64,000 bases of DNA, taken from NCBI GenBank assembly GCA_958009085.1, contig OY253677.1, forward strand, positions 496,001-560,000. Direction: 5' to 3'. Below the pieces are notes generated by a model, which made no database searches, was not told where the DNA came from, and saw nothing but the letters and a program-made list of their open reading frames with translations. The stretch's first letter is position 1. Every line of letters starts with the position of its first letter. This document shows, piece after piece, positions 59-62,404 of the stretch. The DNA comes from Protoeuglena noctilucae (Eukaryota). Made by a program: the position numbers and the translations under genes.

Positions 59-2726
59 TGTCCCTGTCGACCTGGCTCGGCTGGAACATCATCTCAATCG
101 GTCCCCTGACTGTCGACACGAACAGGCGCTTCTGGGCCCGACGAGGGCTGGCGGTCGCCAGACGCTCGGGGAAGCCGGGGAAGCCACCGGGTGCCATGAC
201 CATTGCACGGAAGCGGGGGTACTGCAATTGGGGGGGCAGGTGCGGGAGTGGTGAGTGGGGTGCGGGAGTGGTGAGTGGGGTGCGGGAGTGGTGAGTAGGG
301 TGCGGGAGTGGTGGGTGGGGTGGCGGAAGTGCGGGTGGGCAAGCGGGCATGCATAGGGAAGGACTAACCATCTTCCTATCGATGTATCTGTCTCGACATC
401 GCAACGCCGCTAGCATGCAACACGTCGCCTCACTTGTTCCGGCGTCACAGTCAAGTGCACCACGCGGGGCTTGCCAGACGAACTGCCACCCCCGTCCGAG
501 TTGGGCTGCGAGGGAAGCGAGGGTTGTGATTACTGTCAGACTTACATGTTACAGTTATATGCAACCACGACAGTCATAGACTGGGATGCGGTCGTCATAC
601 ATGCGACCGTGACCGTCACAACACCCCCCGTCACCCCCGTGCCCCCCTAATCCACACAACCACCCCCCCCTCACCCTCCCCCACCTCCGTGCCCGCCCCG
701 CTCTCCTCCCCCCCTGCCCTCACCCCCACTACCACCCCACCCTTTCCCTCACCTCCATGCCCCCCTCATCCTCCCCACCCTCCCCCTCACCTCCGTGCCC
801 GCCCCGTTCTCCTCCCCCCCCTCCTCGGCCCCCTTGCTCGACACCTTCCCCACCGGCCCCACCGCCCCCCGCCTCTGCGGCCGCCCCACCATCGCCGCCA
901 CTTCGTGTTGCGTCCCGGCTGGGAGGATGAACTCCGTGAAGTCCTGACGGGACATGGGCACGTCCAGAACCACCTCACCGGCCTGGCCCTGGGCGCGGCA
1001 TGGATGAGAGGGGGAGTGAGCTGGGATGGCCGGCTGGCCCTGGGTACAGGGTTGATAAGGCAGGGCAGCTGAGCTCGAATAACTATGGCGGCAGTGACGG
1101 AAAGGTGGTCCTCACCTTGGAGTGGACGGCCTTGAGAAAGGCGTCAGCCACGGCGCCAGTGCACTGCATGAAACGGGAGCGGCAGGACGGCGACACGACC
1201 GCCTTGCCGTTGATCGTCACGGCCGGCAGCTTCTGCACCAGCTTGGCCAGGGGGAGCAGCTCCACGCGGCCCGCGGTCGCGTAGCACGGGCCGTCGCCAT
1301 CCTGTGATGGGAAACGGACAACAGTTGCGGTCGCGCAAGCCGCGTCTCCCGGCAGCGCAGTGACACGCTCCGCTCTGCATGCGCAGGACTGCAAAGCGAG
1401 CACTAGTTCGCGTAAATGACATGAAAACGGTGCGGTATGCATCATGCTAAGGGCCTGAGCTGCAGCTGCCAGGAGCGAGGGACGCACCGCAGGGATCAGC
1501 ACTGCGCTGCGGAGAACGGCCTTGCCAGGCAGTCCGGGGACGACTGCGGGCAAAAGCAATGAAGACTAAGTTAGTTGAATGATAAGTAACTTGTCGGACT
1601 GCCTTGCGAACAGGCCAGGTGAGCGCACCATCGCCACGCGTCGGCACGCACCCAGGATCTGGAGGACCTTGTACGTCCCGTCCGTGGCGACCACGACGTC
1701 GCCCGGCATCACGTTGACATCCATTCCCTCCATCGTTGCGCTCGGGCACGTCCAGGAAGGCGCCACGCCCGTGACCAAGCCCTGGAGCGCCTGCGACGGC
1801 AGCCAAGGCGCAGGCTCTGTGATCCGAACGTCCGTGTACCTCCGCGGGCACTCGCGAACAAAGAGCTTTACGATATAGGAGCACGCGCGAGGCTCCGCTT
1901 CCATTCGCCGCTCGCCTTGAACTCGGTAATAACGTCGTGGCCCTCCGGAGGCCGCACGTGGTACCCCGCGCGGTCCTCCGAGAGCGAGAGCTGAACGAGG
2001 ACATTGCCCTGCGAACAGTGAGAGAGAGACTGAGCGACGAAGGGGACGGCGAGAGCTGCAGAAAGCAGTGGGTCGAGATGGCGGGCGCGTATGCCGCGGC
2101 CTTCGATGCGTCCGGCGCGCCAGGCCATCGCGACACGGATCTTCAAGTCAAGTGCACTGCGCCGGCCACACGTAGACGTCACCTTGACCTCGGAGGGGTA
2201 CACGGACAGCTGCCCATCCAGCTCCATCGAGCAGGGCCGCACCAGGCGCCGGAGGCCCTTCGCGGCGCCGAGGTGGCTGCAGAGGCGCACATCGGGTGTC
2301 AAGTTCTGTTATGCGTCCAAGACATCCCCGCGGGCCCAAAGCCGCAGAAGGTCAAAGCTGCCATCCGCTTCGGGAGCCCCGCTCTCACCCGGTGAGCGCC
2401 ATGGAGGTCCGGAAGCGCGTGTACACCATGTCGAGGAGGTCACGTCCCAGCGCCACTTGCTTCTCGCTCGAGACCCGCAGGCCCTTGCACAGCTCGGCGC
2501 ACGTCGCGGCCAGGCTCTCAGCGAGAGCCGCGACTCGCGCGTCAACCAGGCTCTCGGGCACGCGGTCCTGCAGAGTTCCCATGACATGAGGTTTCGTGAC
2601 GGTCAGCTCCTCGCTCGAGGCGCTGCCGACCCACGAGGGTACATCGAGTGCATCCGTGGCGAGATTCACGGCGCGCGGGCCTCCTGCGCCACCGCCAGGT
2701 GCCGGCGCCTCCCCCGTCTTCATCAT
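59..2726 (-). CDS. Multi-exon hypothetical protein, 3' end runs off the window start; possible degenerate BAH-like segment
   Basis: Exons can be joined in frame across GT/GC-AG junctions: MMKTGEAP.. (2726), DRVPESLV.. (2567-2389), HLGAAKGL..ITEFK, LFVRECP..YKVLQIL, VVPGLPGK.., DGDGPCYATAG..VHSK (1302-1117), GQAGEVVL..AGTE (987-791), YPRFRAM..VDRDR (222-59). No confident family match. Confidence 0.55.
239..316. repeat. Intronic tandem repeat, about 20-nt unit (GGGTGCGGGAGTGGTGAGTG) x ~4
   Basis: Directly visible. It forms the C-rich 3' part of the minus-strand intron 223-790. Confidence 0.9.
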
Positions 2727-3276
2727 CGAGTCCAGCGCCAGCGAGCAGATCCGAAATCTCGCCGCGAGCCGTCAGCTCCGACCAGCTGGATGGCTCATCT
2801 AAAGACTGGACCACAACCGCTGTGCCAGCAGATAAAGTGCTTGAGTCGGCGACTGGCGGGTCCCTTACCGCATTTCTGACAGGGGCGCTGCGGTCGGGAT
2901 CCGCTCTGCAGCAGCTAAACACGGATCACCTACGCTTGAGGGTAAACGACCCTGCAGCCAGCATCGCAGCCGTGCGCGTTTCAAAGCACTCTCGTCTACC
3001 CCTCGCATGCCGATCGCTGTGCCAGTCACTACTGGTTCATCTCTGCCGTGCCTTCAGCCCAGTTCCCCTTGCCACGCCGCCCTTGAGACGCCGCCCCATA
3101 CACCATGCCACTCTCAGACACCATGCCACCCGCAGACGCCGCCCCACCCCTCAGACACCTGGCTACCCAGCCTCGGACTTGTTGCCACCCTCAGACTTGT
3201 TGCCACCCTGAGATGCGGTGATGTGGTGCCACCCCTCAAACGCCTTGCCGCTCTCATCTCACTCCCCGTGCCACCC

Positions 3277-6370: not shown

Positions 6371-6491
6371 TTCTACTGCTGCCCAGACTTGGCCGCTGAG
6401 ACGAGGTAGAGGATTGGCGTCGTGAAAGCTCCCGTGGGAGGCCGAAGAGGGCGGGAAGGACCGGCGTCAGGATCCAACTGGCGCTCACGCT

Positions 6492-19200: not shown

Positions 19201-21430
19201 GCGTCCCCGAGGTGGTGGGGTTCTGGGAGAACGCCAGGTACGACACCAGGGCATCCCCCATCGACCCGGGGGCGTTCCCCGCCCGCCACGTCTGCGCACG
19301 GTCCGCCAGGAGACCACGGAGGTGGGCCCTGCGATGGTAAGGGAAGCACGCAAAGTTGACTAATCAATTGGCACCCGTGCAGTTCAATGGCACAGTTGAC
19401 TGACGGACTGCAGATGAAGGGCACGAGGGTCTAGAGCTCGCCATGCTCACTACAGCTCATCCCATGCCACGCTCACCACAGCTCATCCCATGCCATGCTC
19501 ACCTCAGCGCCACGAGCGCCAGTCCCAGGAGTCGGTACACGGCCCGGTGGATGCCGATGGACTCCACCACCGCGTTGCTGCCCTCGTTCAGAGCCTCCAG
19601 GGACTTCTTCCTCGTGTCGCCGCCCACTGCAAACACGATGCACATGTTGAGGTTAGGCGATGCGATGCAATCGGAAATTGGCTTAAATAGGCAGTCGATG
19701 TCATCAGAGTCGGCGTCGAAGTCAGTGTTTGCATGCAACCATCATGCTTAAGCAACACCCAAACGCATGAAGCCTCACCGGAGTCGGCGTCGAAGTCTGC
19801 GGTGCTGTTGCTGGTCACGTGACCACTATCATCCAGGAACGACGCGGCCAGGAAGATGCCCTGGAGGGAATCTTTGAGCGGGGCAAAGACGGCGCGGTGC
19901 ACCACCCGCAAGAGAAGGGCGTGGATGCACACGCACGCCACAATCAGCGCGGCCTTGACGGCCGAAGAGACAATCACGTGGCTACTCCTGCGGGGGTGAG
20001 GGTGGGGGTGGGCATTGGTTGGTGGGGCATGTTAGCAAGAACGAGCCACGATGGCAGCGAAACTAAGCACGAGAAGCCGGGCTCAGCAGAGGCAGAGACA
20101 GGCGCAGTGGTCGAGTCATGTCGGCGCTCGCCGTGGTATCAAACATGGATCTTCAGGTCTCCCCACACAGTTTGCAAAGCAACTGTCCCACCTGAGTCGG
20201 TCGATGCCTAGCACCACCGTGACACCGTACAGGTCGGTGCTGTAGATGACGGCCTGGGACCTATGCTGGAGTGGCGTGAGGGGAGCCAGGGTCAAATTCA
20301 CACCCACGCCCGTGCCGTCCAGGTACACCTGCGGCGATGATGGGGCTGGCAGTCTACGCACTGCAGCTGAACACAGCTGACGCGCCATCTCCACCCCCAC
20401 CGCTGCTCTCCGTCCCCCCAGTCGGCTCTCACCAGGTCGTACTGCGGGTAGCCCGCCACCGCGCTCAGGATCGAGGCCTTGAGCTCCCCCAGCTGCGTTG
20501 CGTCCCCCGCCCCCACCACCCGCGCAAACGTGGCCACCTCGGTCGACAGCCGGATGCTCAGCTCGCGCACGTAGTCACCCGTGCTCGCGGTCAGCACGCA
20601 GAGCATCAGCGCGAGGCCCAGCACTGCGGGCGCGAAAGCGTTTGCGTTATGTTAACCCCTCCAATGACCTGCCAAGCTTTGCCAAGCTTGGTAGTGCCAC
20701 ACGCCCTGCACGCCTTGCAAGCCAAGCCCCTCACCCATCGACACCCAGACGAGGCATACGCTGCCCTGGAGCACGGACGCCTGCTCGTGGCCCAGGAGGT
20801 CCTCAGCAGCGGACAGCCTCCCCCGCACGGCGCGTTCGTGGTAGAAGCGCAACGTGACGCGTGCGTAGGCCAGCGCACCCATGACCAGGAACGCCGCGGC
20901 GGTGAGCACCGAGAAACCCACGAGGGCGCTCTCGTCCAGGCCCCTTTCGGACGCCACCTCCGCCCGCACGGGGTGGTTGGGCTCGGTGGAGCTTATGGGC
21001 AGCGCGAGAGAGTAGAAACCCAGGCAGGCGCCGAGGGCCAGGCAGCAGAGGGTCTGCACCGCGGCCCACACCCAGTCGAGGCTCACGCGCCGCTCGCGGC
21101 GGGAGCGGGCGCGGATGGCTGCGGGAGAGAGGCGTCGGCAGATGGTTGTTCGCGGTGTTTGTGCGATTCGGCAGATATTCCGGCCCGAGCATCGGCGGAG
21201 GCGGCACCTTGAACGGTGAGGAGGTCCGCGAACCACACGGCGAGCACTGCGCTGAAGACGCCGAGGACGAAAGGCCTCGCATCGTGGTTGCGGTCCCCCG
21301 GCCCGTACGCCAGCCACGCGATGGCGACCGTGAAGGACGCGAGCAGGGCCGTCGCAATCAGGAAGACTGCGAGAAGTGTAACCGCTGTGTTCGCATCCAG
21401 CGCGGCGTCGCGCGGGCGCGGGAGAGGCAC
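16217..21430 (-). CDS. Multi-pass membrane protein with a degenerate class I cyclic-nucleotide phosphodiesterase domain
   Basis: PYHN, PGLSNAFLI..DPIAVRFNDSSPLEN and RRVILKTMLATD match the PDEase_I layout. N-terminal exons are strongly hydrophobic. About 15 exons; true start unresolved. Confidence 0.8.
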
Positions 21431-36381: not shown

Positions 36382-39300
36382 TCAACCCCCTCCCCTTGTC
36401 TCACCTGCCCCCCCCTCCAATTCGATCTGCCTCCTCCGCTCCACGATGACCGGGTGAGTGAGAACCGGGAACAGGCTGCGGCATGCCCTCTCGATGAGCA
36501 GGCACAGCGTGAAGGAGACGGCCGCACCGATGATGAGCTTGTCCTGCATCTTGCCTGTGATGTAAGGGGGTGGGGGGGTGTGGTGGGGTGGAGTGCAGGC
36601 AAAGGGTGCATGCATGTGATGCGTGGGGAATGGGGAAAGTACAATGGTATGACTACAATTACTACCATAGTATTACTACTGACAACGTGGTACATGGGGC
36701 TAATGGACGATATCATGGATGGCAAGCATCGCCAGCACATCTCACTAGCAAGCATTCACCACAAACACCTCTCCCCATCAAACATTCCCATCCCCTCTCA
36801 CTAACAATCACTGCCACCATCTCTCACCCGGTATGGCCACCCCCTGGAACCAGTCGCTCAGCCACAGCAGCATCTCACTATACATCTAGTTATACATCTC
36901 ACTATCACTATCACTATCAATCACTGCCACTATCTCTCACCAGGAATCGGCACCCCCTGGAACCAGTCGCTCAACCACGGCAGCATCCCCGTCACCATCG
37001 CAAAGTAGAGCGCCCCCAGCGCCACCATCCCCCGCATCATGATCCCATTCTCGGTGATATCGATGCTGAACGGCCTGCCCACGTAGTTCACCGCGAACGT
37101 AGTCACTTGCTGGATGATGTTCACCAAAAAGCAAGTGGTGTTGACCAAATTGGGGTGAAACTCGTCGTCGGGTTTCTGGCGCTGCGAGGGGTCCTGGTGG
37201 GCGAGTGCCCAGTTGTAGGCGAGCATGAGGAAGGATAGCTGGACGGCGAACTGGCCCAAGAGGGACAGGAAGACGTAGGGGGACAGCACGCGGGGCTGGG
37301 GATGGGGGGGAGAAGTTTGTTAAGAGTAACTCTTAGTGTTGAGAGGGGGAGGGAGACGTAGGGACAGCACGCGGGGCTGGGGGGGGGGGGGGGGGGGGAG
37401 TGATGGGGGGTGGGTGAGTTTGTTAAGAGTAAGTGTTTAAGAGGGAGAGGGAGACGTAGGGACAGCACGCGGGGCTGGGAATGGGGGGCGGGGGGGGGGG
37501 GGGGTGAGTGGTTGAAAGGGTGTGAGAATTGTGAGGGGTTGAAAGGGTGCGGCAGGAGCGATGAGGGGTAAGCGACTCTCCGGGTGTGAGCGGGTGAGAG
37601 CGTGCACACAATGCGTTTGCCGACAGCATTGCACCCGTGTCTGCCCTACCCCCCCCTCCCCATCTCACCTGCGGCAGCTGCGGGGCCAACGCATCGACCG
37701 GCCTGGACTGCGAGAGGAGGAAGAACATCGCCGCGCTAAACATGCCCGACACGGTCGCCTGGTAGTCCCCCATCTTGACCCCCTGCAAGTACTGCACCGA
37801 GTACGAGTACGCCCCCAGCAGGCTGAGCTGCCCCAGAATCTTGAACATCTGCACCGTGGTGACGAGCGTGCACCGGCCCTGGCGGAGGATGTCGATGCAG
37901 GGCTGCACGCTGCTTGCGCGGGCGGTGAAGGGGGCGGCCATGGAGGCGTCGCCGGGCTTGACCATCGGGGCGTCCTGTGTTGTGGGGGGGGGGGGAGGAT
38001 GTTTAGATATGGGGGTGTAGGGTTGGGGCAGGGGGCGGGCAAGGCATGGCCAACGTGACGAGGGATCTTTATCAACAACCCATCCATCAATATAACTAAC
38101 TATCAATTTACAACCAGCCCTCACCATCCCCGCCATCTCCGTCTCCATCTCGTCCATAGCCACGCACATGCCAAACCATCTACCCACACATACACATATA
38201 TAAAACTATAATAAACATCAATATATTACACATAATCACCCCTCACCATCCCCGCCATCTCGCTCTCCATCTTGTCCATGGCCACGCACATGTCGATGAC
38301 CCTCTTGTTCCCCTCCACCCGCACGCCCGCATCAATGTACCTCTGAAGCATCTGCGTCCCTCGCCCGCCCGTCAGCTGATCCGAAAGCATCTTGGCGCGA
38401 TAGAGAGGGTCACTGGGGTCCAACACCCTCTCAGGTGGGGTGGCAGGGGTGGCAGTGGGGTTAACAAGCGATGTTGCACCATCACCCCCCGCCCCCGCCC
38501 GCACAGCTCTGTTCCCGTTGTAAGTCCCATCCACACTATCTCCCTTGCCGCCCTCTGGCTGCTTCTTCTTGACTGGCAGCGCAAGCAGGGCAACACCCAC
38601 GTGTGCGGCCTTGAGAGCGCCGACGTCGTTGGTCCCATCACCGCACATGAGCACGGCGCGGTTGAGGGATTTGAATGTGTTGACCACGAGCTCCTTCTGA
38701 TCGGGGGACACGCGGGCGAAGACCTGGGGGGGGGGTGGTGAGGGGTAGAGAGGGTTAGGATACATATGCAGGGGGGGGGGGGGGGGGAGGGGTGCCATGC
38801 GCACTAACAGAGGGGGGTGGTGTGTGCAGAGAGGGGCAAGCAGTGTGCTGGCTGACTGCTGAACAACCCCTGCAAACCCAGCTGCAAGCCTTCCAAACAC
38901 AAAAGCACAGCATCACTCTGCCAAACCACTGCATCACTCTGCCCCACCGCCCCCTCACCTGCACCCGCGGCACAACCGCCTCCAGCAGCCCCCTCCCCTG
39001 CACGTGCGTCAACGCGTCCCCCGTCACGCAGAGATCGAAATCCAACGCCAGCTCTCTTATCGCCGCCTCATTCGCAGTGAAGTCCAACCGGTGTCGCCCG
39101 TCGGGGGATCGATACTCAAACCGCGAATCGGGCTCCTCACGCAGCGCCCTGTCGCGCGCCGCATCGCTGTCATCCGAATCGGCACTTGTAGAGCGCGGGC
39201 GGGAGGGGCCACCGGGAGCGTGGCTGGTGCGCGACGGGGTGGTGGTGTTGGTGAGCGTGGCTGTTCTTGTGTTTGTGACCGCGGTTGTGGTAGTGGTAGA

Positions 39301-42300
39301 CGTGGTTGTGACAGATGGGACGGCATCCGACGCGCTCGCCCCCGCATCGGCGCTCACCGCCTTGTGCCCCAGGATCAGCACCTGCCTCTCCACAATGTGC
39401 GTCTGTCTGGCCACGTGGCAAGCGGTGAGCGGCGCATCTCCCGTGATCATCACCAGCTGCAGGGCGGCGTCCCTCAGATGTCGCAGTGCGGGCTCGGAGC
39501 CCTCTTTGAGCGGCGTGGCGAACACGGCGAATCCCGCGAAACGTAGTCGGCTCTCGATGTCGGCGCGAGGGGCGTCCTTGGCGGCGGCAGACGACAGGCC
39601 TGGGGGGGAGGGGGGGGGTTGCTATGTGGGGGTGGGTGGCACTGGGGTAGGATGGGATGGTGCTGATGTGTGGATGTCGACATGGGTGCGGGAGGGGGGG
39701 GGTTGGATGTGGGGTGGTGCTGGTATGTGATGCGACACTCCGGGTGCTCATTGGAAAGATTTGGTGTATATCATTGGGGTTGGCAAACAGCCCTGGTTGC
39801 TACTTAAGCGTCCCATGTGCGATTTGTAATCCCTCTCTACCTCACCATCACCCTTGCACACACCCACACGCAACCAAGCCACGCCACCCAGACCAACCAA
39901 CCCCCCCCCCCCCCCCCCCCCCACAACAACCCCACAATAACACTCCCGCCAATTCAAATCCAATCCATTCCAATTCCCATCCACAAGACCCCTCACCCGG
40001 CAGCGCGCGCCCCGCCAGCGCCAGCACCCGCATCCCCTGCGCCGCCCACGCCCGATGCGCCTCATCATACCCCACAGGCACCTCCTTGAGCAACCCCCTC
40101 ACCACCTCCGGCGCGCCCTTCGTCACCACGAACGCTCCATCCGCCCCCCCCAGCCACTCCACCACCCCCCCCCCCATCGCCGCCGCCCCCTTGCACTGCA
40201 GGACCACACTCATCCGCTTCAGATCGGAGTTGAATGCGTGGCGCACGATCACCGCGAACCGCCCCGCGACGCCGCCGGGCGTGGCTTCGGTCGCGGCGAC
40301 TTCCGATTGCGTGACGCGCAAGTGAAGGCGTGCGTTGGCTGCTACTTCAAGCGGATCGCCCACCGCTCTCCCGTCGATCTCTGCGATGGCGCTGCACATG
40401 CCCAGGGCGACGACGGCGGGGGGGGGGAGGGTGGCGGGGTCGGATGCGTCGGTGAAGTGGGGGGCGCCGGACTGGGGGGGGGATTGGTGGGGATTGGTGA
40501 GGGGTGTGGGGTGAGAGGGGGGAGAGTGAGTTGAGTGGGTGAGATACAGTTTAATCAACTAACACGTACAGTTACATTCAACCATCAACCCCCCGCTAAC
40601 AAACACACCACCACTCGCCTTGTCGATCCCCACCACCCCCTTGGACTCCATGTCGTCTAATAACCATCAACCATGAACAGCCCTAACAATCAGATATAGA
40701 AATCACCTTGTCGATCCCCACCACCCCCTTGAACTCCATGTCGTCGGAGGTGAGCGTGCCCGTCTTGTCGAAGCAGCAAACGTCGACTTTCCCAGCAAAG
40801 GGGATGCGGAAGGGCTCGGTGCAGAAGACGCGGGCGCGCAGCAGGGTGATCTGCGGATGGCATTGTGTATGGAGATGTCGTGAATGGTATGATTACAACG
40901 ATGGCGAGTGAGGATACGCGAGGGTAATCTGGGAATGGAGTAACAAACACAGGGTTGTGGATGCATGACTAGCACTCGCAGTCGCATGACCACTGTCAGT
41001 ACCACCATCACTACCACTACCACTGCCAGTGGCATGATCATCGCTGCCACGCAGTATTAACATCAATGATTCAGCACACGTGATATCAAAACACATATAG
41101 TGCTTTACTCCAGTGATCCACTCACCAGGGACGCGTTGACGGCCATGGTCAGCTCCATGGGCAGCTCGGGCGGCACCACCGACGTGACGATGATCACCAC
41201 ATACAGCAGAATCTTGGTCTTGCTCCTCTCGGGATCGTGCCACGTCTGGCTAATGTAATACCCTGCAGCAGCGACGGCGAACATGAGCAGGAAGAGGATG
41301 AACACGCCCGTCTCCCAGTTATTGGCGCTAATGCGGTCGGTGGAATAGAGAATGGTGCGCATCAGTCGGCCCTGGGAAGTGCCGAATCCGGTCCGCAGTA
41401 CCACCGCCACGCAGCCGCCGTCGGGGGGGGGTGGCACGGAAGAGGGGGGGGGTGGGGGGGGAGTCGCTGCCCTCGCCGCCCGCGTCGTGCTGTGATGGGG
41501 AAGGGGGTAAGGGTGTGTGGGTGTGTGAAAGGGGTGTGGGGGGATGGGGGGGGGTGTGTGGGGGTGTGGGGTGGGGCGTGGGTGTGGGTGTGGGTGTGGG
41601 TGTGGGTGTTTGCAGCACCTTGGCATCGGCAACCAATCACACGCTCCTCACTCCTCCCCCCCCCTCTCACCTGCAGCACCTTCGTCCCGGCAAACAGCAC
41701 CCGCTCCTTGCTCCTCGTCACATGCAACACGGGCTCCCCCTCCCCCTCTCCCTCTCCCTTCCCCTTCCCAACCACCACCGCCCCAGTTGTTGCCCCCACC
41801 ACCACCGCTCCCGTTGTTGCCCCCCTCGCCGCGTGCGCATCCATCGGTAGCTTGCTCTGCGGCGTGCTCTCCCCCGTCAACACAGCCTCGTCGACGATAA
41901 CACTGCCCGTGAGCAATAGCATGTCGGCGGGCACCACCACCTCTTGTCCCTGGGGTCGTGTCACTGACACCAGGTCCCCTGGCACCAGGGATGAGCCGGG
42001 GATGGTGACCCAGGAGCCGGCACTGGGGGGGAGGGGGTGGGGGAGTGATGAGACGTGTTGTTATGTGAGGTGAGGTGAGGTGAGGTGGCAGGGGGGCAGC
42101 AGTTTGTGACGATGATTCGCCTGTCATACCCCCCCACACACAATGTCACAATTGGTGTCAACCATCCTTATCAGCCACCCCCTCCCAATTCTCACCGGTA
42201 CACCGTCACATCCTCACCAATCCTTCACCAGTCATCATCCATTGTCGCCCATTCTCACCCCCAACCCCCTCAACCCTCACAACCCTCACCGGTACACCGT

Positions 42301-43675
42301 CACGTCGGGCGTCTTGGGCCGCAGCCCCCTGAGCTCCTTGAGGCTCCTGAGCCTCTGGAAGACGACCGTGCACTCGAAGCTGACGAGCATGAACACGGTG
42401 AAGAGGGAGTAGTACCAGTAGGAATCGAACACCCACAGCAGGACGCAAAACATCTGGGGAGATGTATGGGAGAGAGCAGCGAGCTGTGACAATGGATGAG
42501 CGTCGTGTTTGGTGAGGAAGAATGAGAGCATGTGTGGGATAATCTATACATGACACCATGACATGCCGAAACATTCTGACTACAGCCAGCAAGCCAGCAG
42601 CTGCATTGTACATAAGAGATTCACCACCACCACCACCACCCCTCGCCTGGAACACGAAGAAGGGCGCCAGCATCTGCTCCTGCAGCAGTGCCACGAAGGT
42701 GGGCAGGGGCAGGTTCATCTCATTCGGGCCCCAGACGGCCGTGGCCGCAGCCACGTCCTCCTCCGCGGCCCAGCCGGGCCAGGCGAGGTAACTGCGCAGC
42801 GGCTGGTGGTCCAAGAAGGGTAGGGCCACGAAGCACCCCCGCGCCGCATCCAGCACCACTTGCAGCTTGCGGAAGTTGAAGGAGACCTCGAGAGCGCATT
42901 CGGAACCCCGCGAGAGGACGCGCTTGGTCAGAGGGACCATCGCGGTGGCCCCGTTGAACTGCTCCGGGTCGACTTTCACCGTGTCCGCCTGCGGGCGAGG
43001 CGAGACGCGCGCGACGGTTCGCGCGATGATAAAAGAGATGATTGTTTAGCGTTCTGACCGCAAGAGCCGCCCGCACACCTCGGCGATGCCCCGGGCGCGG
43101 GAGTAGCGGAGGAGCGCGTCGATGCTGACGAACCAGTGGCACAAAAGGAAGGAGAGAATCTGCAGCACGGCCGCGCCGAGCAGCACCCACAACGAGATCC
43201 ACACGCCGGCCTCTTTGCCTGCGGCGGCGGATGAGCCGGGGAGCTGCACGGCGGTCGCGAGGGAGCGCGCCCATGACCCTGCCGCAGGAGCGCAGCCGCC
43301 CGCGCTTGCGCGCAACGGCGCGCCTCGAATCGCGTGCCACAGTGCGCTGACGGTCGAGGCGCCCACGGCCGTCGCGGCCGCGGGGACATCCAGCTGCGCG
43401 ACGCGTGGGCGCTTCTTGTAGAGCGTCGCCCGCTTCAGGCCCTGCGAGAAAACCAGCAGACGCTTTGTGATGGTCCCGTCATCCAATGAAAGAGACCAGG
43501 GATCGCACGGTCGGGGATCGCGCGCGGGGCTGCGCGTCTTTCGAGGCGCAAACTTGGGCGGCAGATCTACCTTCGCCTCCAGGTTATAGACGCCGCCGTG
43601 CTTCCGATCGCATTCTCGAAGCAGATCCTCCAAGCCACTCCCGGCAGCGCCCCACTGCAGGTGCGCTGCGTCCAT
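36382..43675 (-). CDS. P5A-type ATPase (Spf1/ATP13A1/PDR2-like)
   Basis: [108 protein letters not shown]. Confidence 0.95.
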
Positions 43676-52703: not shown

Positions 52704-53138
52704 GGCTGTTTCTAGGCGATAGATGGGCGAGCGGGCACATAATAGCCCGTGTAGGGACATGGCAGTAGTGTTAGCTCTTAGTATTAGCTCTCGCGGGACC
52801 CCTGAGTAGCGGACTTTCAAAACGCGAGTCCAACGTGCTGCACACATCACGTGAGAAGCGAGTGAGAGGCCCTGCCGGCCTGAGAATCGGCATTCATCGC
52901 ACCCCCGTCGTGAAGTCGAGACTGCGGACGCGACCGGAGCAGGGGCGGCGACGATGACAACTTGGCTAGACCTCCTGGCCGCCCTCCCGGGGAGGTAGGC
53001 GTTGCGGCGGGTTCCGCGCGTACGCTCTTGATAGAATGTGCGGATGGCGCAGCCGGACGCGGCTGAGCGGCGTCGGGGAGCGAGCTCGGGACACGCTGCC
53101 GCGGCCCCCTCCCTCGCAGGGCCGCCAACGCCGCCCAG

Positions 53139-55557: not shown

Positions 55558-58500
55558 CTATGCGCTGCCGGCGGTGCTGGAGGTGGCGTACTTTTGGATG
55601 AAGCTCTGCGGATGGGAGAGCGAGTGGTGGAGTGGATGATGGAGTTATCGCGACGTCGCATTACCAATTGTCACTTTCTTGACTGCATCAAAAGATGGTG
55701 ACACCATAGCACGGTATGCAACTCATACCAAGATCCAAAGTACTCGTTATCAGTACAAAAATCACTGCCTATATCATCCATCCTCGCCTTCTGGTTCCAG
55801 AAGGGCGCGAGTAGCACGAAGATGGCGGCGCAGGAGGCGATGAGTGCGGAGAAGAACACGCCCCACCCGTACTGGTGGACGGCTAAGGAGAGGGGGACGC
55901 CAGCCGACGCGGCGCCCATGTAGCTGATCAGGCCGATGATGCCCTGGGGTTGGGTGCGGGAGAGAACGGGTGAGATGATGTGCTATGTGCAATTATAGCT
56001 GATTAGGCCGAGGATGCCCTGGGGGGGAGTGGGTGGGGACGGGGAGTGAGACTGGGTGACTGGGGACTGGCTGTGCTGTGCAGCGTGATGGGTGACGAGG
56101 TTGATTGTCACTTGCGATGGGGCGTGTGTGGGAGAGAGCGAGTGAGACTGCCCGTGCACACCCACGTCCTCTTTGCAATTCCCAACTGTGTATTTCTGTC
56201 CCAGTCATCAACAACCCCGCATCCTTGCCTGGGACGCCCCCACCGCCTTCGGCCCAGCCACCTCCGCGGCCGCCAGGCCCGTCAGCATCTGCGGGGAGAT
56301 GGGGCACACGCTTTACATGTGTTGCGTCTAATCGCATTTGCCTTATTCAGCTGAAACAGGAAGCCGATAAAGGAAGTTGTGAGAACGACGAGTGCATGGC
56401 GACAGGGAGCGTAGCGACGGGCAACCAGCACAGGCAAGTGCATAACAACAACAAATAACAGGTATCGCATAGTTATCTCACCTGTGGTCCGTACAGGAAG
56501 AACCCGATCATGAAGACAGACGCCCACTGGGCCCAGGCAGCGCTAGCGGGGATGTTGGCAAACGTGACCAGGGCCTGCATGGGTGGGAGATGGTAAGTGA
56601 TGGTGAGTGAGTGATTGGTGAGTAGTGAGTGATGGTGCATATGAGTGCATGGATGTTGGCGAACGTGACCAGGGCCTGTGTGGGTGGGAGTGAGTGAGGG
56701 TGAGTGATGCATGTCCACACAGGCGGGGGTAGGAGTGATGATGCAGGTCGATACAAGCGAGAGAGGCAGGCAGGTCGATACAGGCAAACGCCCACGTCAC
56801 AGCGTGCACGCTCATCTGAACAACAGCCCTCACCAGTGCGACAGCTATGATTAACAATCATAACTGCGATCCCTGCTGCTCACCAGTGCCATGCCGATGG
56901 AGCACGCCATCATGATCTGCACGCGCTTGCCCACCACGCCCTCGCCCTCCTTCATCGTGGAGATGCGCCTGCAAATGGGAGATAGGAGATAATGCGAAAC
57001 AGTACATAGGGGACATCGCAGTAAAAAACAACTGCCATGTGAATCATTACTGCGACTCGGCAGCTCCACCTCATCGCTACCCCACCCCTCGCCAGTCACT
57101 GAGTCCACTCCCCTCATCGCTACCACCCCTCACCAGTCACTGAGCTTCCCCGCCAGCAGGCTCCCCGCCAGCCCCCCCAGCTCCAGCCCAGAGACGCGCA
57201 CGGCCGCCATCGCAGCGTCCTCCACGCCCTTAGCCTGCAACACACATAGCAGAGTGGACGATAGCGGAGTGGACGACTTTCACGACACTGTCTGGCGCAA
57301 CGCAGGCCTGCCTCCCTCGCATGCGCGCAAGGAGCGTTCGTGACAACGCGACAGCCAATGCCCATGCCAATGCCAATAGCAATACCGATACCGATACCGA
57401 TACCAGCCCCAGTCACCTTGATGAGGTAGAAGCTGCGTCATAGTCACAGTCACAAGTCACAGTCACACTCATGAGTCATAGTCACCTTGATGAGGTAGAA
57501 GACGAGCCAGGAGGTGGCGGCCTGCCTGACCACATAGACGAAGAAGTACTGCAGCGCGAATGCCCAGAGCACCGGGTTGCGGAAGACCGTGTACTTGGCA
57601 GACGCCTTCTCGCCCAGTGCGTCCATGTCCACGGAGGGGCCCTGGGACTGGGAGCCGCCCTTCTTGGTGCCTGCGGGGTAGATGAGGGGGCGTCACATAT
57701 AGTAGTAGTTGAAGCTAGGGGTTAGGGGTTGTGTGACTGGGAGCCGCCCTTCTTGGTGCCTGCGGGGTGATGGAGGGGGTTGAAATGGAAAATAGGTGGA
57801 TAGAGATGCCCCTCATTTGTGATGATCAATACTCCGTCCATTACCACAGCCCCTTCCTCGCGACACCCAATACTCCCTCCACTACCACATCCCCTCACCT
57901 GTGACACCCCCGCTACCCCCCCTCCACCCGCACATCCCCTCACCTGTGACACCCCCGCTACCCCTCCTCACACCATCACAACCTCCCATCCCATCCCATC
58001 CTCACCCGAATCAACAGGCGGGAACCCCATCTGCTCCGGCGTGTCCTTGATAAGCAGCATGACGACGCCACTCATGGCCGTAGCGATCAGAGCGGGCGCG
58101 AACATACCCCAGCGCCAGCCGAGGGCCCTGGCAGCGCCGCCCGCGATGATGGGGGCTAAGAAGGCTCCCAGGTTGTTGGAGGTCGTCCAGATGCCCCACC
58201 AGGTGCCGCGCTCTTTGCTGTCGAACCACTGAAAGGGGAGGGTGGTGTGGGGAGATGTGAGTGAGCGTCACTCTCTTTGCTGTGGAGTTACTGTGGGGGA
58301 CGGTGATGGTGTGGGGAGATGTGGGTGAACGAGCCAATGGCTGCCCCGCTAGCCTAGGGAATACACATACACCCACCTGCACACCCATCAACCACCGCAC
58401 CCATCAGCACATCCACCCTTCCAACCCCCCACCCCTCGCCTTGGTGAGCAGCCGGGCGCACGCGGGCGCTCCGGTCCCCTGGAACAGCCCATTGATGATC

Positions 58501-59672
58501 CACAGCGACACGAACCACGGGAGGCTGTTACCCAGACCGAATACCGCATTGGCCACGGCAGTCGCCAAGAGACCGAACGAGAGCATCTGGTAGGGCTTGA
58601 GGTGGTCGCCCAGGACACCCGCCACGAGCTGCGGGGGTGGGGGAGGTGGGGGAGGTGAGGTTCGAGTCTCACTGAAGCAGGGTGTGACGGGGTACGGGGT
58701 ACGTCAAAGTGGGCTGGGTGAGGTGGGGGCTGTATAGCGCTCGGCGCAGGTACAGGCGGGGCTGGGTCGAGGTGGGGCTGCACGGCTGATTTTTGATGAG
58801 GGAGGGGCGGCGGTGCGAGGTTCGAATCTCAGCAGCGTTGCGTGCGCAGACGTGAGTACGACTCGCCTTGGAGGACGAATAGGCGATGGGGAAGGCGGAC
58901 GTGACGATGCCGACCTTGGTGAGGTTGAAGCCCAGGCTCGGGTCGGCCTCCATGACGGGGGCGACGTAGGGGAGCGAGTTGCGGGTGAGGTAGAAGCACC
59001 CGTAGCCGAGCATGATGCCCGTGAAGACCACCAGGCGCGCGCGCAGGAAGGAGGAGTTCGTCTCCGAATCCGAGGGCTGTGGAGTGGGGCTCGACCCAGG
59101 CGCGGCGGCTCCTGCGGGCCGCGAGGGGGAGGGATCGCGGGCGGGCGGGTCCGGGGGGTCAAAAGGCACCCCCGTGGGCACGTCACGCTCCCAGGCTCCT
59201 CACCCGCCGCTCTGGAGACGCGGGTCCGGCTCTGACTGGCATGTTCGATAGAGTACCAGTTCGCCGGGACTTTGTCCGGGAGCCGCGAGCGCAGCGGCGC
59301 GCGGGGGGCGGCCTTCGAGACTCGCGACGGTTGCCCGACCGTCACCCAGTCGCGGCCGCAAGCGGGCCGGACGGTAGCCCTGCGTGTGTATGAATGCCGA
59401 CATCGCGGGGAGAAGGAGCGGGGACGGGGGGGGTGCTCCAGCGCGCGGGAGGCGGGGAGCGGCTCGGCAAAGTCCAAGCCTCGCGAAACGCCCCGATGGG
59501 CGCATGATGGGCGCGATGCCACAGTCCGTAGTCGAGAAAAGAGAACACGGCTGCGAATCGTGGCGACCAAGGGAAGACGAGGCGGGGGATCAGGCCGAAC
59601 CAGCCGAGTTTGCCGTGTGGAGCTCCCAACGTGCGTCCTCGGGCTATTCGCCCAGCCGCACCTGGCCAGCAT
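55558..59672 (-). CDS. uhpC: MFS organophosphate:Pi antiporter, UhpC-type hexose-phosphate transporter, probably plastid-targeted
   Basis: GYGCFYLTRNSL, NGLFQGTGAPACARLLTK|WFDSKERGTWWGIW, KDTPE, YFFVYVVRQ, LELGGLAGSLLAGKLSD, GFFLYGPQ|ML, GLISYMGAASAG. Last exon SFIQKY..SA* is 55605-55558. Start uncertain. Confidence 0.88.
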
Positions 59673-60389: not shown

Positions 60390-62404
60390 TCAGATGTCGT
60401 CAAAGAACGACTCCAGGGAGCAGGTGCCGGTGTCGGAGTCGCGGACGTGGAGGCCCGCGATGTCGTCAAGGCTGCCCCCGAAGAGCGCCTCGTCGCCCAG
60501 CAGCTGGTCCACCAGGTCCGGGTCCAAGTCACCGAGGGCGTCATCCTCCGCGAGCCAGCGGGACTCCTTGGATTGGGGCTCGTCGGGGGAGGACTGCGGG
60601 GCGGGCCTCTTGAAGCGGGTGGGGGACGTCGACCCTGGGGGTGCGTGGGGCTCGGGGGCAGACGGGGGCCCGTCGGGGGGGCACAGCACCGTGGAAGCTG
60701 CGGGGAGAGCGGGGCGTGCTCGTTGACATCGGTATCAACACCACATGCTGACGTCCATGGCAGTACCACGTTGGCCGAGACGCGTGCGCATGGTTCGAGG
60801 GCGTGCTAATCAGTACCAGTACCGGCATCAGCGCCACCTTGGCCGAGACGCGTGCGCATGTGTGTTGGAAGCTTGCCGCGTGCGAGCGTGTGCGGCTCGC
60901 CTTCGCTCGGCACGGAGACCAGGGCCCCTGGGTCGGCGGTGATGCTCGGGGTCTGAGCCCAGAGCGCGGGGGATGCGCAGGGCACCCATATGGGCCCGGG
61001 CACGGCCTGGATGGGGCCCGTGGGGTAGAGCAGCACCGGGTATGGGACCGGCACCACGCCGCAGATCGGCATGGGCATGCCGGGCGGGCACGTCATCGAG
61101 GGCTGCAGGGCCGGCCCGAGCACGGGGCCCTGAGCCGCGGGGGCCAATGGGCCGCTGGTCCCCGTCGCTGCTGGCGAGGGGAGCGGTGCCAGGACGGAGG
61201 TCGTCGCAGCCGGCAGCGCACTCGGACCACTCGGCGAGGAGGTGAAGGAACTCGGTGGCTCCATGTCGAGGAGCACAAGGCCGTGGTTGCCGAGCGTCCG
61301 GATGTCGCGCATCTTGCCGTCGCCTGCGGGCGGCAAGGCACAGGGACGGGTCGTGGCAAGATCACGCGAGCGGTGCGCACGCCGGCGGCCCAGAGCGGAT
61401 GGGGCCCGCGACGCACGTTCGGTGTAAAAGAGCTTCTGCGGGTCGGCCCGGACGATCCCCGAGGCCCCCATGTGCTGGTATCGCGAGCCGAAAACGTAGC
61501 TCTGGTATTTTGGCTCGACTGCCTTTGTTGAGAGGGCGATGACCACGAACTTGGTCCATCCCTGGGCGTCCCTCGGGGCCTCTGCGCGCGCGTGCGAGAT
61601 AGGTCTGCGACCTTCCAGCCCTGCCATAGCCCTGGGCCTTGTTGGAGGAAAGTCAGTCAGTTTGCGCGCGTGCGAAGCACACTACGTGCGGAGCACACAG
61701 GGTCAGGCAGCAGGTATAGCAGCGTGGGCGTCGTCGACCGTGACCTCACCGGCAGTGAATGTGGACGTGATCGGGACCTGGATGCCTTGCCCCCAGCCAG
61801 CAGGGGCCAGTCGGCACCACAGCCGGCCGGGCTCGTCCTCCCGCGCAGGCACGACAGCGATCCGGCCGCCGGAGCTCGTGCGCCCTCCCAGGGAGAAATC
61901 GAAGATGACGACCCTGCGACACCCAGGCACGCGCTCCGGGAGCGGTCACCGCATGCTGGGCGCGTCGACGGTCGTCAGCCCCCGCCCCAGCGAGCTCACC
62001 GGTTCCGGCCCACAATCAGGATCGGGGAGATGATATTTGCGTTCTCGTCCTGGACTTCGTACTCAAAGACCCGCAGGAGGTGTCCCCGCTCGCGGAGCAG
62101 CTGGAGAGGTGGGAGAGGGACGTTGTTACGAACCTTGTGGCGTGCAACGACTCGCCATCGACAACCAGAAAGCAATCTTGTTCGAAATGAACGCGGAGGG
62201 CGGCTCCTTGCAACGAGGGGGCAACAGGGCAGTGCGAAAAGGGGTCGGTTGCGGTCGCCAGCGGACGCCGGCCCCCGCGGCCGCTTTGGACCCTGATACC
62301 TCCACGAGAACAGACTAATTGTCTGAAACACTCACGTTGGCGAGGTAGGTACACATCGCCGGGTCCGTCAGGGAGAACGGGCGCTGGCGAGACCCTGCCG
62401 ACAT
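60390..62404 (-). CDS. Hypothetical protein: globular N-terminus, Pro-rich middle, acidic/hydrophobic C-terminal tail
   Basis: Exons join in frame: MSAGSRQ..YLAN|LLRERGH..GRNR|VVIFDFSL..TFTA|EAPRDAQGWTKFVV..FYTE|.. ending SLESFFDDI*. Confidence 0.6.

What the first reader, a model, noticed from the sequence alone, without database searches (positions are those of the whole stretch)
682..60860. Splice-junction echoes: introns carry a copy of their own exon/intron boundary (window-wide)
Seen outside the two densest genes: 682-714 copies 788-820 (last 30 nt of exon plus GTG donor, 1 mismatch); 19707-19723 copies 19781-19797 (PDE exon end); 32877-32920 copies 32797-32840 (GARP exon end plus GTGAGT); 60771-60792 copies 60839-60860. 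With the P5A and UhpC cases this is about 15 events in 6 genes, on both sides of the gap, each 45-125 nt from the original. Inference: a recurrent local duplication process that is tolerated when the copy falls in an intron. It would lengthen introns, create decoy or alternative splice sites, and could seed new introns or recursive splicing. I do not recognise this as a described feature at this density.
Basis: partly seen in the sequence, partly recalled or inferred. Interest (0 to 1): 0.78.

Follow-up and report, generated by a model that had tools for sequence, protein, structure and literature searches.

The report
Exon-boundary copies inside algal introns
In several genes of a GC-rich marine alga, introns hold a second, apparently unused copy of their own splice junction, most likely left by frequent short local DNA duplications that lengthen introns and plant decoy splice sites.

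Summary
All four named pairs exist, and I count about 16 junction echoes in 6 genes, 43-122 nt from the original and all in direct orientation. Direct pairs at 45-130 nt number 14, against 0-1 in 20 shuffles, and there are no inverted pairs within 1 kb. For 7 of 8 events in the stretch laid with reads, DNA contigs span both copies, including contigs from an independent marine metagenome. RNA contigs place the real splice junction on the exon-adjacent copy for 6 events. In 21 checked introns, 9 of 42 junctions share 10 or more exact bases with their own intron, against about 0.6% for other introns. Echo sites score as strong as real sites.

The echoes are best read as neutral products of a short-range copying process, either tandem duplication or incomplete template switching, that survive only when the extra copy lies in an intron. 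If 40-125-nt tandem duplications hit at random and exonic ones are purged, 46% should span a junction; I tallied 11 of 18. So no junction-targeting is required. However, several young echoes copy only the exon end plus the splice motif, which plain tandem duplication does not explain. This is a new variant of a known kind. I found no evidence for new introns, recursive splicing or function.

The parts
776..820 (-). Original: last 30 nt of a minus-strand exon (ends 791) plus 15 nt of intron. Its echo is 672-714, d=104-106.
   Evidence: for the repeat. for ORF plus GAG|GTGAGG consensus only. The region is G-rich and low in complexity. No RNA or homology support.
672..714 (-). Echo of 776-820 inside the intron; keeps GAG|GTGGGG.
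19781..19797 (-). Original: 17 nt of the phosphodiesterase-gene exon end, stopping 2 nt short of the donor at 19779|19778. Its echo is 19707-19723, d=74.
   Evidence: 17/17; the ORF continues across a 151-nt intron with GTGAGG...TTTGCAG. PDEase_I domain downstream.
19707..19723 (-). Echo of the PDE exon end inside the intron. It carries no GT, so it is an exon-only copy.
32796..32840 (+). Original: 15 nt of the Myb/GARP exon end plus 30 nt of intron (donor 32810|32811). Its echo is 32876-32920, d=80, 82% identical throughout, so it looks like a true tandem unit.
   Evidence: One search finds a Myb domain. That the intron splits a ...TREN|V... motif typical of this Myb class is from my own recall.
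32876..32920 (+). Echo of the Myb exon end plus GTGAGTGG.
36402..36419 (-). Tentative original, a G-rich exon end plus GTG in the P5A 3' region. Its echo is 36291-36308, d=111.
   Evidence: Low complexity, and the junction is not verified.
36911..36987 (-). Original: 47 nt of the P5A exon end plus 30 nt of intron (donor 36941|36940). Its echo is 36798-36874, d=113, 90% identical throughout, so tandem-type.
   Evidence: The exon is set by tblastn and Pfam Cation_ATPase_C.
36798..36874 (-). Echo of the P5A exon end; keeps CGG|GTGAGAGA.
37258..37310 (-). Original acceptor junction: 15 nt of intron plus 38 nt of P5A exon (junction 37296|37295). Two echoes lie upstream in the intron at 37342-37391 and 37439-37488.
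   Evidence: The two echoes share a 2-nt deletion and substitutions relative to the exon, so the roughly 100-nt unit holding the echo was itself duplicated (37314-37398 vs 37417-37496).
37342..37496 (-). Two echo units of the P5A acceptor junction, forming an array of about 100-nt units.
38240..38292 (-). Original: 46 nt of P5A exon end plus GTGAGGG (donor 38247|38246). Its echo is 38118-38170, d=122.
   Evidence: The RNA contig piece ends at 38246. DNA contigs of X1 and X5 span both copies.
38118..38170 (-). Echo with ATG|GTGAGGGC, PWM score 10.9.
40706..40745 (-). Original: 39 nt of P5A exon end plus 1 nt of intron (donor 40707|40706). Its echo is 40618-40657, d=88, 39/40 identical.
   Evidence: X1 and X5 contigs span both copies. 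There is residual collinear similarity of the intron parts, 0 of 410 controls as high.
40618..40657 (-). Echo with AAG|GCGAGTGG, a GC-type donor, PWM score 11.2.
42274..42303 (-). Original: 14 nt of P5A exon end plus GTGAG... (donor 42290|42289). Its echo is 42180-42209, d=94, with 19 nt exact.
   Evidence: X1 and X5 contigs span both copies. The spacer begins with two exact GTGAGGGTT units.
42180..42209 (-). Echo with CCG|GTGAGAAT, PWM score 10.2.
55921..55949 (-). Original acceptor junction of UhpC: 6 nt of intron plus 23 nt of exon (55944|55943). Its echo is 55996-56024, d=75.
   Evidence: RNA joint in X9 and X11, refined to a GC-AG intron. DNA contigs span both copies.
55996..56024 (-). 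Echo acceptor, PWM score 14.7.
56550..56589 (-). Original acceptor junction: 15 nt of intron plus 25 nt of exon (56575|56574). Its echo is 56651-56690, d=101.
   Evidence: RNA joint. DNA contigs span both copies.
56651..56690 (-). Echo acceptor, PWM score 12.5.
57112..57144 (-). Original donor junction: 11 nt of exon plus 22 nt of intron (57134|57133). Its echo is 57069-57103, d=43, a true tandem repeat of 1.9 copies.
   Evidence: RNA joint. TRF period 41..
57069..57103 (-). Echo; the donor is changed from GT to GC (CTG|GCGAGGGG, PWM score 9.6).
57480..57501 (-). Original donor junction: 16 nt of exon plus GTGACT (57486|57485). Its echo is 57411-57432, d=69, 22/22 identical.
   Evidence: RNA joint. 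The spacer is a degenerate (GTGACT)n array.
57411..57432 (-). Echo with AAG|GTGACTGG, PWM score 10.3.
57646..57679 (-). Original acceptor junction: 9 nt of intron plus 25 nt of exon (57671|57670). Its echo is 57735-57768, d=89, 34/34 identical.
   Evidence: RNA joint. Both copies are not within one listed DNA contig, because the contigs end at this repeat.
57735..57768 (-). Echo acceptor, PWM score 10.4.
58217..58328 (-). Older 64-nt tandem unit across the acceptor 58229|58228. The intron part 58243-58264 vs 58307-58328 is 21/22 identical. The echo of the exon start is decayed to about 17/25 with 11 nt exact.
   Evidence: The junction rests on ORF plus consensus only.
60834..60860 (-). Original: 23 nt of exon end plus GTGG (donor 60838|60837). 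Its echo is 60766-60792, d=68.
   Evidence: ORF plus consensus only.
60766..60792 (-). Echo; the last exon base is changed (AAC|GTGG).

Best explanation
The echoes are real genomic DNA with no function of their own. They are left by a very active, short-range (43-122 nt), same-strand copying process. I think this process is out-of-register template switching during replication or break repair in these low-complexity introns. When the re-copied stretch runs the full distance it gives an ordinary tandem unit, as at 36798/36911, 57069/57112, 32796/32876, 58243/58307 and the 37314-37496 array. When re-copying stops early it leaves only a patch, consisting of 11-47 nt of exon plus 1-15 nt of splice motif, set down 40-75 nt inside the intron. 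Products that fall inside exons are purged. Products that span a junction survive only if the exon-adjacent site stays in use, so the spare copy sits in the intron as an unused, full-strength decoy. Exons and introns here are only 60-400 nt long, so nearly half of all tolerated events must span a junction. Splice-like motifs that recur inside the introns probably act as the microhomology that starts or ends the switch. Shown: the copies are real, local, direct-only and far above chance; they sit on RNA-proven junctions; the exon-adjacent site is the one seen in RNA contigs; the echo motifs are strong. Inferred: the enzymology (slippage, flap or synthesis-dependent end joining), the role of microhomology, and neutrality.
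For: Locality and orientation: 14 direct pairs at 45-130 nt, 1 beyond 300 nt, and 0 inverted pairs within 1 kb, against 0-1 pairs in 20 shuffles. Reality: independent DNA contigs span both copies for 7 of 8 events. Junction link: 9 of 42 junctions share at least 10 exact nt with their own intron, against 0.5-0.7% of 840 non-cognate comparisons; exon segments 32-62 nt from the junction do so in 1 of 42 cases. The random tandem null predicts J/(J+I)=0.46 and 30% exonic events; I observed 11 of 18 and no exonic events in these genes. Full tandem units exist both across junctions and inside introns. Patch-type primary products are supported by young pairs whose spacer is unlike the flank: 57411/57480 (22/22, p=0.89) and 57646/57735 (34/34, p=0.44). 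In another alga, L012 has 65/66 identity with an unrelated AT-rich 28-nt spacer. Spacers of three donor echoes are arrays of the donor motif itself. Strong splice-like decoys unrelated to echoes do occur: 8 of 13 strong intronic donors. Identities run from 82% to 100% without a gap, as expected for continuous birth and neutral decay. RNA contigs from two samples use only the exon-adjacent sites.
Against: There is no ancestral allele, so I cannot tell whether an event added only the patch or a whole unit. In at least 6 events the exon-derived part is 92-100% identical while the rest of the would-be unit is at or near background. Yet intron-only arrays of similar period keep 81-95% identity across the whole unit. 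Neither simple tandem duplication nor a two-switch patch model is proven. The exon share of the unit is below 0.5 in 16 of 16 events, which a uniform tandem model does not predict. Strong decoy acceptors are rare apart from the echoes (2 of 6), so pre-existing acceptor-like microhomology is not well supported. Twelve of 16 events lie in two genes, which a uniform rate does not explain. RNA evidence comes from assembled contigs, which hide rare isoforms, so 'unused' means 'not dominant'.
Confidence: 0.55

Rival explanations
1. Only plain tandem duplication operates. Whole 43-122-nt units are duplicated at random positions. Selection removes exonic products. The intron-derived part of each unit is then quickly scrambled by microsatellite-type indels, so only the non-repetitive exon-derived part stays recognisable. 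No patch copying and no role for splice motifs is needed.
For: The junction-to-intron ratio fits this null: 11 of 18 observed against 46% expected, p=0.14. Collinear residual similarity of intron parts is seen in 40618/40706 (0 of 410 controls as high), 56550/56651 (p=0.013) and 38118/38240 (p=0.036). L024 shows about 20/27 identity by eye. Pooled over the events with alignable intron parts, mismatch rates are similar, about 11% in exon parts and 16% in intron parts (hand count). Spacers are rich in small internal repeats.
Against: The two perfectly identical echoes (22/22 and 34/34) and the 65/66 echo in L012 have spacers with no detectable relation to the flank. Intron-only tandem arrays keep unit-wide identity. 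The exon share never exceeds half of the unit.
Confidence: 0.22
2. The copying is tied to splicing or transcription. For example, a break in the intron is repaired using the nascent pre-mRNA as template. That would explain why copies are sense-oriented, confined to genes and anchored on the junction.
For: All copies are direct and lie in the transcribed sense. Under the 'short copy dropped anywhere' null, 8 of 11 pairs are junction-anchored against 18% expected, and no template is wholly exonic against 20-30% expected. All 11 complex, non-overlapping pairs in the right-hand scaffold are junction-type.
Against: Direct-only orientation is equally expected from DNA slippage. The window is too gene-dense to test intergenic DNA. 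The copies include intron bases, so mature mRNA is not the template. Full tandem units and intron-internal arrays need a DNA mechanism anyway. No direct evidence.
Confidence: 0.1
3. The echoes are kept by selection, for instance as decoy sites that feed regulated unproductive splicing, or as intronic binding platforms.
For: Echo sites keep full-strength motifs: donors score 9.5-11.2 and acceptors 10.4-14.7, while the 95th percentile of intronic decoys is 3.7 and 7.6. The exon-derived part is better kept than the neighbouring intron sequence in several events.
Against: Identities form a continuum down to 82%, and some echoes have lost the site: 19707-19723 has no GT, and 58281-58328 has a decayed exon part. 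The events occur in unrelated genes and at both donor and acceptor sides. No echo-site joint appears among the 15 joints shown. No conservation data are available.
Confidence: 0.07
4. The spacers are small inserted elements, introner-like or filler DNA, flanked by unusually long target-site duplications that happen to span the junction.
For: The copy-spacer-copy layout fits. Two donor spacers run exactly from GT to AG (40658-40706 and 57433-57485).
Against: The 13 spacers match nothing else in the window and do not match each other. No inverted repeats were found. For acceptor echoes the spacer must already carry the branch site and pyrimidine tract of the working acceptor, which random filler would not provide. 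None of the acceptor spacers starts with GT.
Confidence: 0.03
5. The repeats are an assembly or polishing artefact.
For: Contigs break at the 34-nt exact repeat at 57646-57679.
Against: Seven of 8 events are spanned by contigs from X1 and from an independent metagenome, X5, with 0-4 differences over 1.3-5 kb.
Confidence: 0.02

Closest known systems
Intron gain by tandem genomic duplication of an AGGT-containing exon segment (Rogers' model; Hellsten et al. 2011, PMC3265369, passages read; review by Yenerall and Zhou 2012, PMC3443670, passages read)
   Same: A short intragenic direct duplication produces duplicated splice signals, and the redundant copy ends up inside an intron so the protein is unchanged.
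   Different: In that model the duplication lies inside an exon and creates a new intron bounded by the two AGGT copies. Here a pre-existing junction is re-copied into its own intron. No intron among the 21 checked is bounded by a repeat. No new intron arises.
Internal gene duplications that include exon-intron boundaries (Gao and Lynch 2009, PNAS). The paper is not held; I saw only its entry in the reference list of PMC3443670, and the content is from my recall.
   Same: Small duplications within genes are common and can add splice sites or intronic sequence.
   Different: As I recall, those are mostly larger segments found by annotation-wide self-alignment. The scale here is 17-77 nt copies within 125 nt, many of them partial units, at up to 6 per gene.
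Introners, meaning transposon-derived introns with target-site duplications (Gozashti et al. 2022, PMC9860276, abstract seen in a search listing; Huff et al. 2016, recalled)
   Same: An intron carries a duplicate of adjacent exon sequence, and the phenomenon is frequent in aquatic algae.
   Different: Introners are multi-copy families with short target duplications that flank the whole intron. Here there is no family, the copies are 17-77 nt, and they lie inside an older intron.
Duplications of 5-108 bp between short direct repeats in yeast flap-endonuclease (rad27) mutants, and templated insertions of polymerase-theta or synthesis-dependent end joining (both recalled, not read here)
   Same: The size range is the same (up to about 125 nt), and both are local and direct with short homologies at the ends. 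Templated insertions give copy-spacer-copy layouts.
   Different: I could not test the enzymology. End-joining inserts are usually shorter and, as I recall, also occur inverted; none is inverted here.
Alternative 5' splice sites born from tandem arrays in human introns (Zhuo et al. 2007, recalled)
   Same: Repeats carrying donor-like motifs next to an exon supply extra donor sites.
   Different: There the extra sites are used. Here the RNA contigs shown use only the exon-adjacent site.

Membership tests
Rogers-type intron gain by tandem duplication | The intron is bounded by the two copies of a duplicated exonic AGGT segment, so repeat spacing equals intron length. | tested here: not met
   Repeat spacings are 43-122 nt inside introns of 151-373 nt. 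No repeat has spacing equal to intron length among the pairs up to 500 nt apart. The echoes lie in intron interiors.
Rogers-type intron gain by tandem duplication | The intron sequence is derived from the flanking exons. | tested here: not met
   Only 11-47 nt of each echo is exon-derived. The rest of the intron is unrelated to the exons.
Introner / transposon-derived intron | A multi-copy family of similar intronic elements. | tested here: not met
   The 13 spacers have no significant match to each other or elsewhere in the 64-kb window. A genome-wide test was not possible because no genome is held.
Introner / transposon-derived intron | Terminal inverted repeats and short target-site duplications at the intron ends. 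| tested here: not met
   There are no inverted repeats within 1 kb. The direct copies are 17-77 nt long and lie inside the intron, not at its ends.
Slippage-type tandem duplication / minisatellite | Direct orientation and short range. | tested here: met
   19 of 20 direct pairs lie within 300 nt, and no inverted pair lies within 1 kb.
Slippage-type tandem duplication / minisatellite | Head-to-tail units that are similar over their whole length. | tested here: inconclusive
   Met for 36798/36911, 57069/57112, 32796/32876, 58243/58307 and 37314/37417. Weak collinear similarity for 3-4 more. None for 57411/57480 and 57646/57735.
Templated insertion by microhomology-primed repair | The derived allele differs from the ancestral one by insertion of a copy of nearby sequence only. 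| not testable with these tools
   No close relative of the locus was found. The 79%-identical relative's contigs could not be fetched.
Templated insertion by microhomology-primed repair | Microhomology at the insert borders. | tested here: inconclusive
   On the intron side the copies end in 1-15 nt of splice consensus, which also recurs as decoys. The exon-side borders show no obvious shared bases.
Recursive splice sites | An acceptor immediately followed by a donor (AG|GT) inside the intron, and used in RNA. | tested here: not met
   Echo acceptors are followed by the exon copy and then by AC, AT, TA or TC/TT, not by GT. No such joint is among the 15 shown; another 38 joints were not shown.

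The most novel reading that the evidence does not exclude
The alga has an endogenous, transposon-independent way of growing and perhaps founding introns. A template switch anchored on splice-site motifs, possibly guided by the nascent transcript, repeatedly copies the true junction and its exon flank into the intron. This continuously seeds full-strength decoy splice sites, which the spliceosome must ignore by a positional rule that favours the outermost sites.
Probability: 0.15. Interest if true: 0.75.

Novelty: new variant of a known kind. Interest (0 to 1): 0.5.

Why it matters
How introns grow, shift and arise is a long-standing open question, and caught-in-the-act events are scarce. Here about a fifth of the checked junctions carry a dated record, at 82-100% identity, of a local duplication across a working splice site. 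DNA and RNA support come from natural populations. This gives a tractable system for three measurements. The first is the rate and spectrum of micro-duplications in genes. The second is how a spliceosome chooses between two locally equal sites 43-122 nt apart. The third is whether such copies ever become new exons or introns. In practice, such echoes are traps for gene predictors, because the decoys score as well as the true sites. If the process turns out to be junction-anchored rather than random, it would be a new mutational route linking splicing signals to genome instability.

Tried and rejected
- No whole genome is held for the window, so no genome-wide census was possible. The scan's earlier notes were empty.
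- The first protein search, with a variable P5A exon, gave only distant hits. These served for exon mapping only.
- The metagenome scan with a P5A exon returned 80 loci, none a close relative (best 75-78% over about 50 residues).
- The window's mannosyltransferase ORF has an identical protein and a 79% relative in the protein collection. Neither has a name or a fetchable contig.
- Taxon: named best hits of a conserved P5A exon are all green plants and algae at 64-70%. Chloropicon was considered and rejected because its GC content is 57-60%, its telomere is TTTAGG-type and it has fewer than 1 intron per gene (passages). Pelagophytes were considered because of their TTAGGG telomeres and about 14-17% GC-AG introns, but they are intron-poor (passages).
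- A BLAST of the spacers found no source or family.
- A first complexity filter, the share of distinct 3-mers, was biased by length and wrongly dropped long repeats. I replaced it with dinucleotide entropy.
- In one search four echo sites (57069, 37342, 37439, 58281) were scored out of register because of indels. One search gives the correct sites for two of them.
- A global-alignment test of spacer against flank using random-window controls overstated similarity. I replaced it with controls taken from other introns.
- RNA: only 15 of 53 joints were shown, and all runs laid were assembled contigs. Use of echo sites at low level could therefore be neither seen nor excluded.
- Literature: 6 full-text searches found no description of junction copies inside introns at this density. 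Gao and Lynch 2009 is not held.
- Contigs end at 57651 and 57675, so the 57646/57735 pair is not shown spanned.

Full report
WHAT THE WINDOW IS. The window is 65% G+C eukaryotic DNA. A 200-N gap at 35147-35346 is followed directly by (CCCTAA)n at 35347-35567. Two scaffolds are therefore joined here, and the right-hand one starts at a chromosome end. Pfam hits on high-GC3 reading frames give this gene map: TatD, ThiF-like, ubiquitin-like, ZZ finger, a phosphodiesterase (minus strand, 18-20 kb), a coiled-coil gene, a DEAD/GUCT helicase, a radical-SAM gene, a Myb gene (plus strand, 32.6 kb), a P5A-type ATPase (minus strand, 36.3-43.7 kb), two mannosyltransferases, an Alg9-like gene, and a sugar-phosphate transporter ('UhpC', minus strand, 55.4-59.2 kb). 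The DNA is held by runs labelled with one organism and by marine metagenomes and metatranscriptomes. Named best hits of a conserved P5A exon are all green plants and algae at 64-70% identity. I therefore treat the organism as a marine green alga of uncertain class.

THE REPEATS ARE REAL AND NOT CHANCE. All four named pairs are present, and so are the P5A and UhpC pairs. I left out the telomere and the coiled-coil coding repeats. Direct pairs of at least 20 nt and 88% identity then number 4 at 20-45 nt, 14 at 45-130 nt, 1 at 130-300 nt (the two-unit step of a triple array) and 1 beyond. There are 7 inverted pairs, none within 1 kb. Twenty shuffles that keep composition in 30-nt blocks gave 0 pairs nineteen times and 1 pair once, against 14 observed. 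The process is strictly local and direct.

NOT AN ASSEMBLY ARTEFACT. I laid contigs of four runs on 38050-58049. For 7 of the 8 junction events in that stretch, both copies lie within single listed contigs. This holds for X1 (for example 52633-57651 with 0 differences) and for X5, a marine metagenome of another study (54539-57675 with 4 differences and 1 gap; 40171-41431; 38050-38772; 41617-44636). The eighth event, a 34-nt exact repeat at 57646-57679, is where the listed contigs stop.

WHERE THE JUNCTIONS ARE. Metatranscriptome contigs from two samples give seven UhpC introns and five introns of the neighbouring plus-strand gene. One P5A intron and the exon end at 38246 are also seen in RNA contig pieces. 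The other P5A junctions come from tblastn with five distant P5A proteins plus frame and consensus. Two further UhpC introns come from ORF continuity. Of these 21 introns, 4 start with GC.

HOW THE PAIRS SIT ON THE JUNCTIONS. In every junction pair one copy straddles the working junction and the other lies in the same intron. Echoes of donors lie downstream of the donor, and echoes of acceptors lie upstream of the acceptor. Six events are RNA-backed: 38240, 55921, 56550, 57112, 57480 and 57646. The Myb event is backed by the domain. The pairs at 776-820, 19781-19797, 58229 and 60834-60860 rest on ORF and consensus only.

AN UNBIASED JUNCTION TEST. For the 21 introns, I compared the last 30 nt of the upstream exon with the interior of its own intron. 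They share an exact run of 10 nt or more in 5 of 21 cases. The first 30 nt of the downstream exon does so in 4 of 21. The same exon ends compared with the other 20 introns do so in 0.5% and 0.7% of 420 comparisons each. Exon segments 32-62 nt from the junction do so in 1 of 42 cases, and that one belongs to a long junction copy. The statement 'introns carry a copy of their own boundary' therefore holds for about a fifth of the junctions in these three genes.

IS THERE JUNCTION ENRICHMENT? The answer depends on the null model.
- Random tandem null. If tandem duplications of the observed sizes fall at random in the three genes, 30% are wholly exonic, 32% span one junction and 38% are wholly intronic. 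Among tolerated events, 46% should then span a junction.
- My hand tally is 11 junction-spanning and 7 intron-internal pairs with spacing of 40 nt or more, giving p=0.14. One of the 7 lies where the P5A exon structure is uncertain. On this null no targeting is needed; short exons and introns suffice.
- Short-copy null. If a short copy is dropped anywhere in an intron from a template 43-122 nt away, only 18% of templates should span a junction and 20-30% should be wholly exonic. I observed 8 of 11 and none.
- With a complexity filter and non-overlapping copies, all 11 pairs in the right-hand scaffold are junction-type, and the left-hand scaffold has none that pass. That filter favours exon-derived sequence.

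ANATOMY.
- Copies hold 11-47 nt of exon. In most events they also hold only 1-15 nt of intron, which is essentially the splice consensus.
- Four or five events carry 22-30 nt of intron at the same identity as the exon part, so they are true tandem units: 36798/36911, 57069/57112, 32796/32876 and 58243/58307. In addition, the roughly 100-nt unit at 37314-37496 re-duplicated an existing echo, as shown by changes the two echoes share relative to the exon.
- The exon share of the spacing is 0.14-0.46 in 16 of 16 events.
- Spacers match nothing else in the window. Three donor spacers are arrays of the donor motif itself.
- On a weight matrix built from the 21 introns, echo donors score 9.5-11.2 (real partners 8.8-12.5) and echo acceptors 10.4-14.7 (real partners 10.0-13.9). 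The 95th percentile of other intronic GT/GC sites is 3.7, and of other intronic AG sites 7.6.
- None of the 15 RNA joints shown uses an echo site. Another 38 joints were not shown, and contigs hide rare forms.

MECHANISM. A single tandem duplication makes the spacer identical to the sequence beyond the echo. I tested this against controls taken from other introns. The similarity is clear and collinear for 40618/40706 (0 of 410 controls as high). It is suggestive for 56550/56651 (p=0.013), 38118/38240 (p=0.036) and 42180/42274 (p=0.07). It is absent for the two perfect echoes, 57411/57480 (p=0.89) and 57646/57735 (p=0.44) (global version).

Copy-spacer-copy can also be a primary product. In another alga's P5A gene (L012), a 66-nt acceptor-plus-exon copy with 1 mismatch sits 94 nt from its original, across an unrelated AT-rich 28-nt spacer.

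I therefore favour one process with two outcomes: an out-of-register template switch that either re-copies the full distance, giving a tandem unit, or stops early, giving a patch. Splice-like motifs may serve as the short homology. Strong decoy donors unrelated to echoes are common (8 of 13). Decoy acceptors are not (2 of 6). The enzymology is inferred. The size limit near 125 nt and the direct-only orientation fit slippage or flap-type duplication and synthesis-dependent end joining as I recall them.

WHAT REMAINS UNEXPLAINED. In several events the exon part is much better preserved than the rest of the unit. The exon share never exceeds one half. Twelve of 16 events lie in two minus-strand genes, one of them 1-8 kb from the telomere.

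ELSEWHERE. Among 80 P5A loci from metagenomes (490 kb), the same criteria give 32 pairs, or 0.065 per kb. This compares with 0.64 per kb in this P5A gene and 1.32 per kb in UhpC. Single exon-end echoes occur in L024/L026/L027, which are 99% identical to each other, and in L056 and L012. A brine alga with 2-kb introns (L004/L005) has many local duplications, but they are intron-internal, as the length-based null predicts. The phenomenon itself is therefore general. What is unusual here is its density in short-intron genes.

COMPARISON WITH KNOWN WORK. The closest described idea is intron gain by tandem duplication of an AGGT-containing exon segment (passages read in PMC3443670 and PMC3265369). 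Here no intron is bounded by the duplication, so that membership test fails, although the logic is shared: duplicated splice signals, with the redundant copy spliced out. Introners are excluded within the window because there is no family, no inverted ends and no short terminal duplications. Six full-text searches found no report of junction copies inside introns at this density. The library lacks most subscription papers.

VERDICT. I file it as a new variant of a known kind, with moderate interest.

Noticed in passing
window 35147-35567: A 200-N gap is followed at once by about 37 units of CCCTAA. The window joins two scaffolds and the right-hand one begins at a telomere. The P5A gene starts roughly 1 kb from it.
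   Followed up: partly
window 55606-55787, 55944-56228, 58229-58439, 58629-58866: Four of the 21 checked introns begin with GC instead of GT. Two of these are backed by RNA joints. Several echo donors are also GC-type.
   Followed up: partly
window 52900-55605: One metatranscriptome contig runs through the spliced plus-strand gene (five introns) and on into the minus-strand UhpC gene. The two convergent genes therefore overlap or abut in their 3' ends around 54544-55605.
   Followed up: no
window 23219-23608: The coiled-coil ORF 22781-23911 (+) holds in-frame coding repeats with periods of 21, 51 and 93 nt. These are the only exonic local duplications seen, and all periods are multiples of three.
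   Followed up: no
window 37379-37398 and 39901-39922: Homopolymer runs of G20 and C22 lie inside P5A introns. The introns are G-rich at the 5' side and C-rich at the 3' side on the coding strand.
   Followed up: no
window 44821-45608: An RNA contig of run X11 lies on the mannosyltransferase ORF with 68 differences and 6 gaps. It is probably a transcript of a related organism from the same water. A protein 79% identical to this ORF (P0009) exists in the protein collection.
   Followed up: partly
L012:1122-1281; L056:1326-1475; L024:4622-4701 (also L026, L027): P5A genes of unrelated organisms from metagenomes also carry exon-end or exon-start copies in the adjacent intron: 66 nt at d=94, 34 nt at d=75 and 21 nt at d=59.
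   Followed up: partly
L004:3739-4076 and 6523-6720 (also L005): The P5A gene of a brine-lake alga, with about 2-kb introns, is full of 40-100-nt local duplications. These are intron-internal rather than junction-spanning.
   Followed up: partly
window 56825-56840: A short 11-nt echo (6 nt of exon end plus GTGAG) lies 50 nt inside intron 56575-56883, below the detection thresholds used. More such mini-echoes may exist.
   Followed up: no
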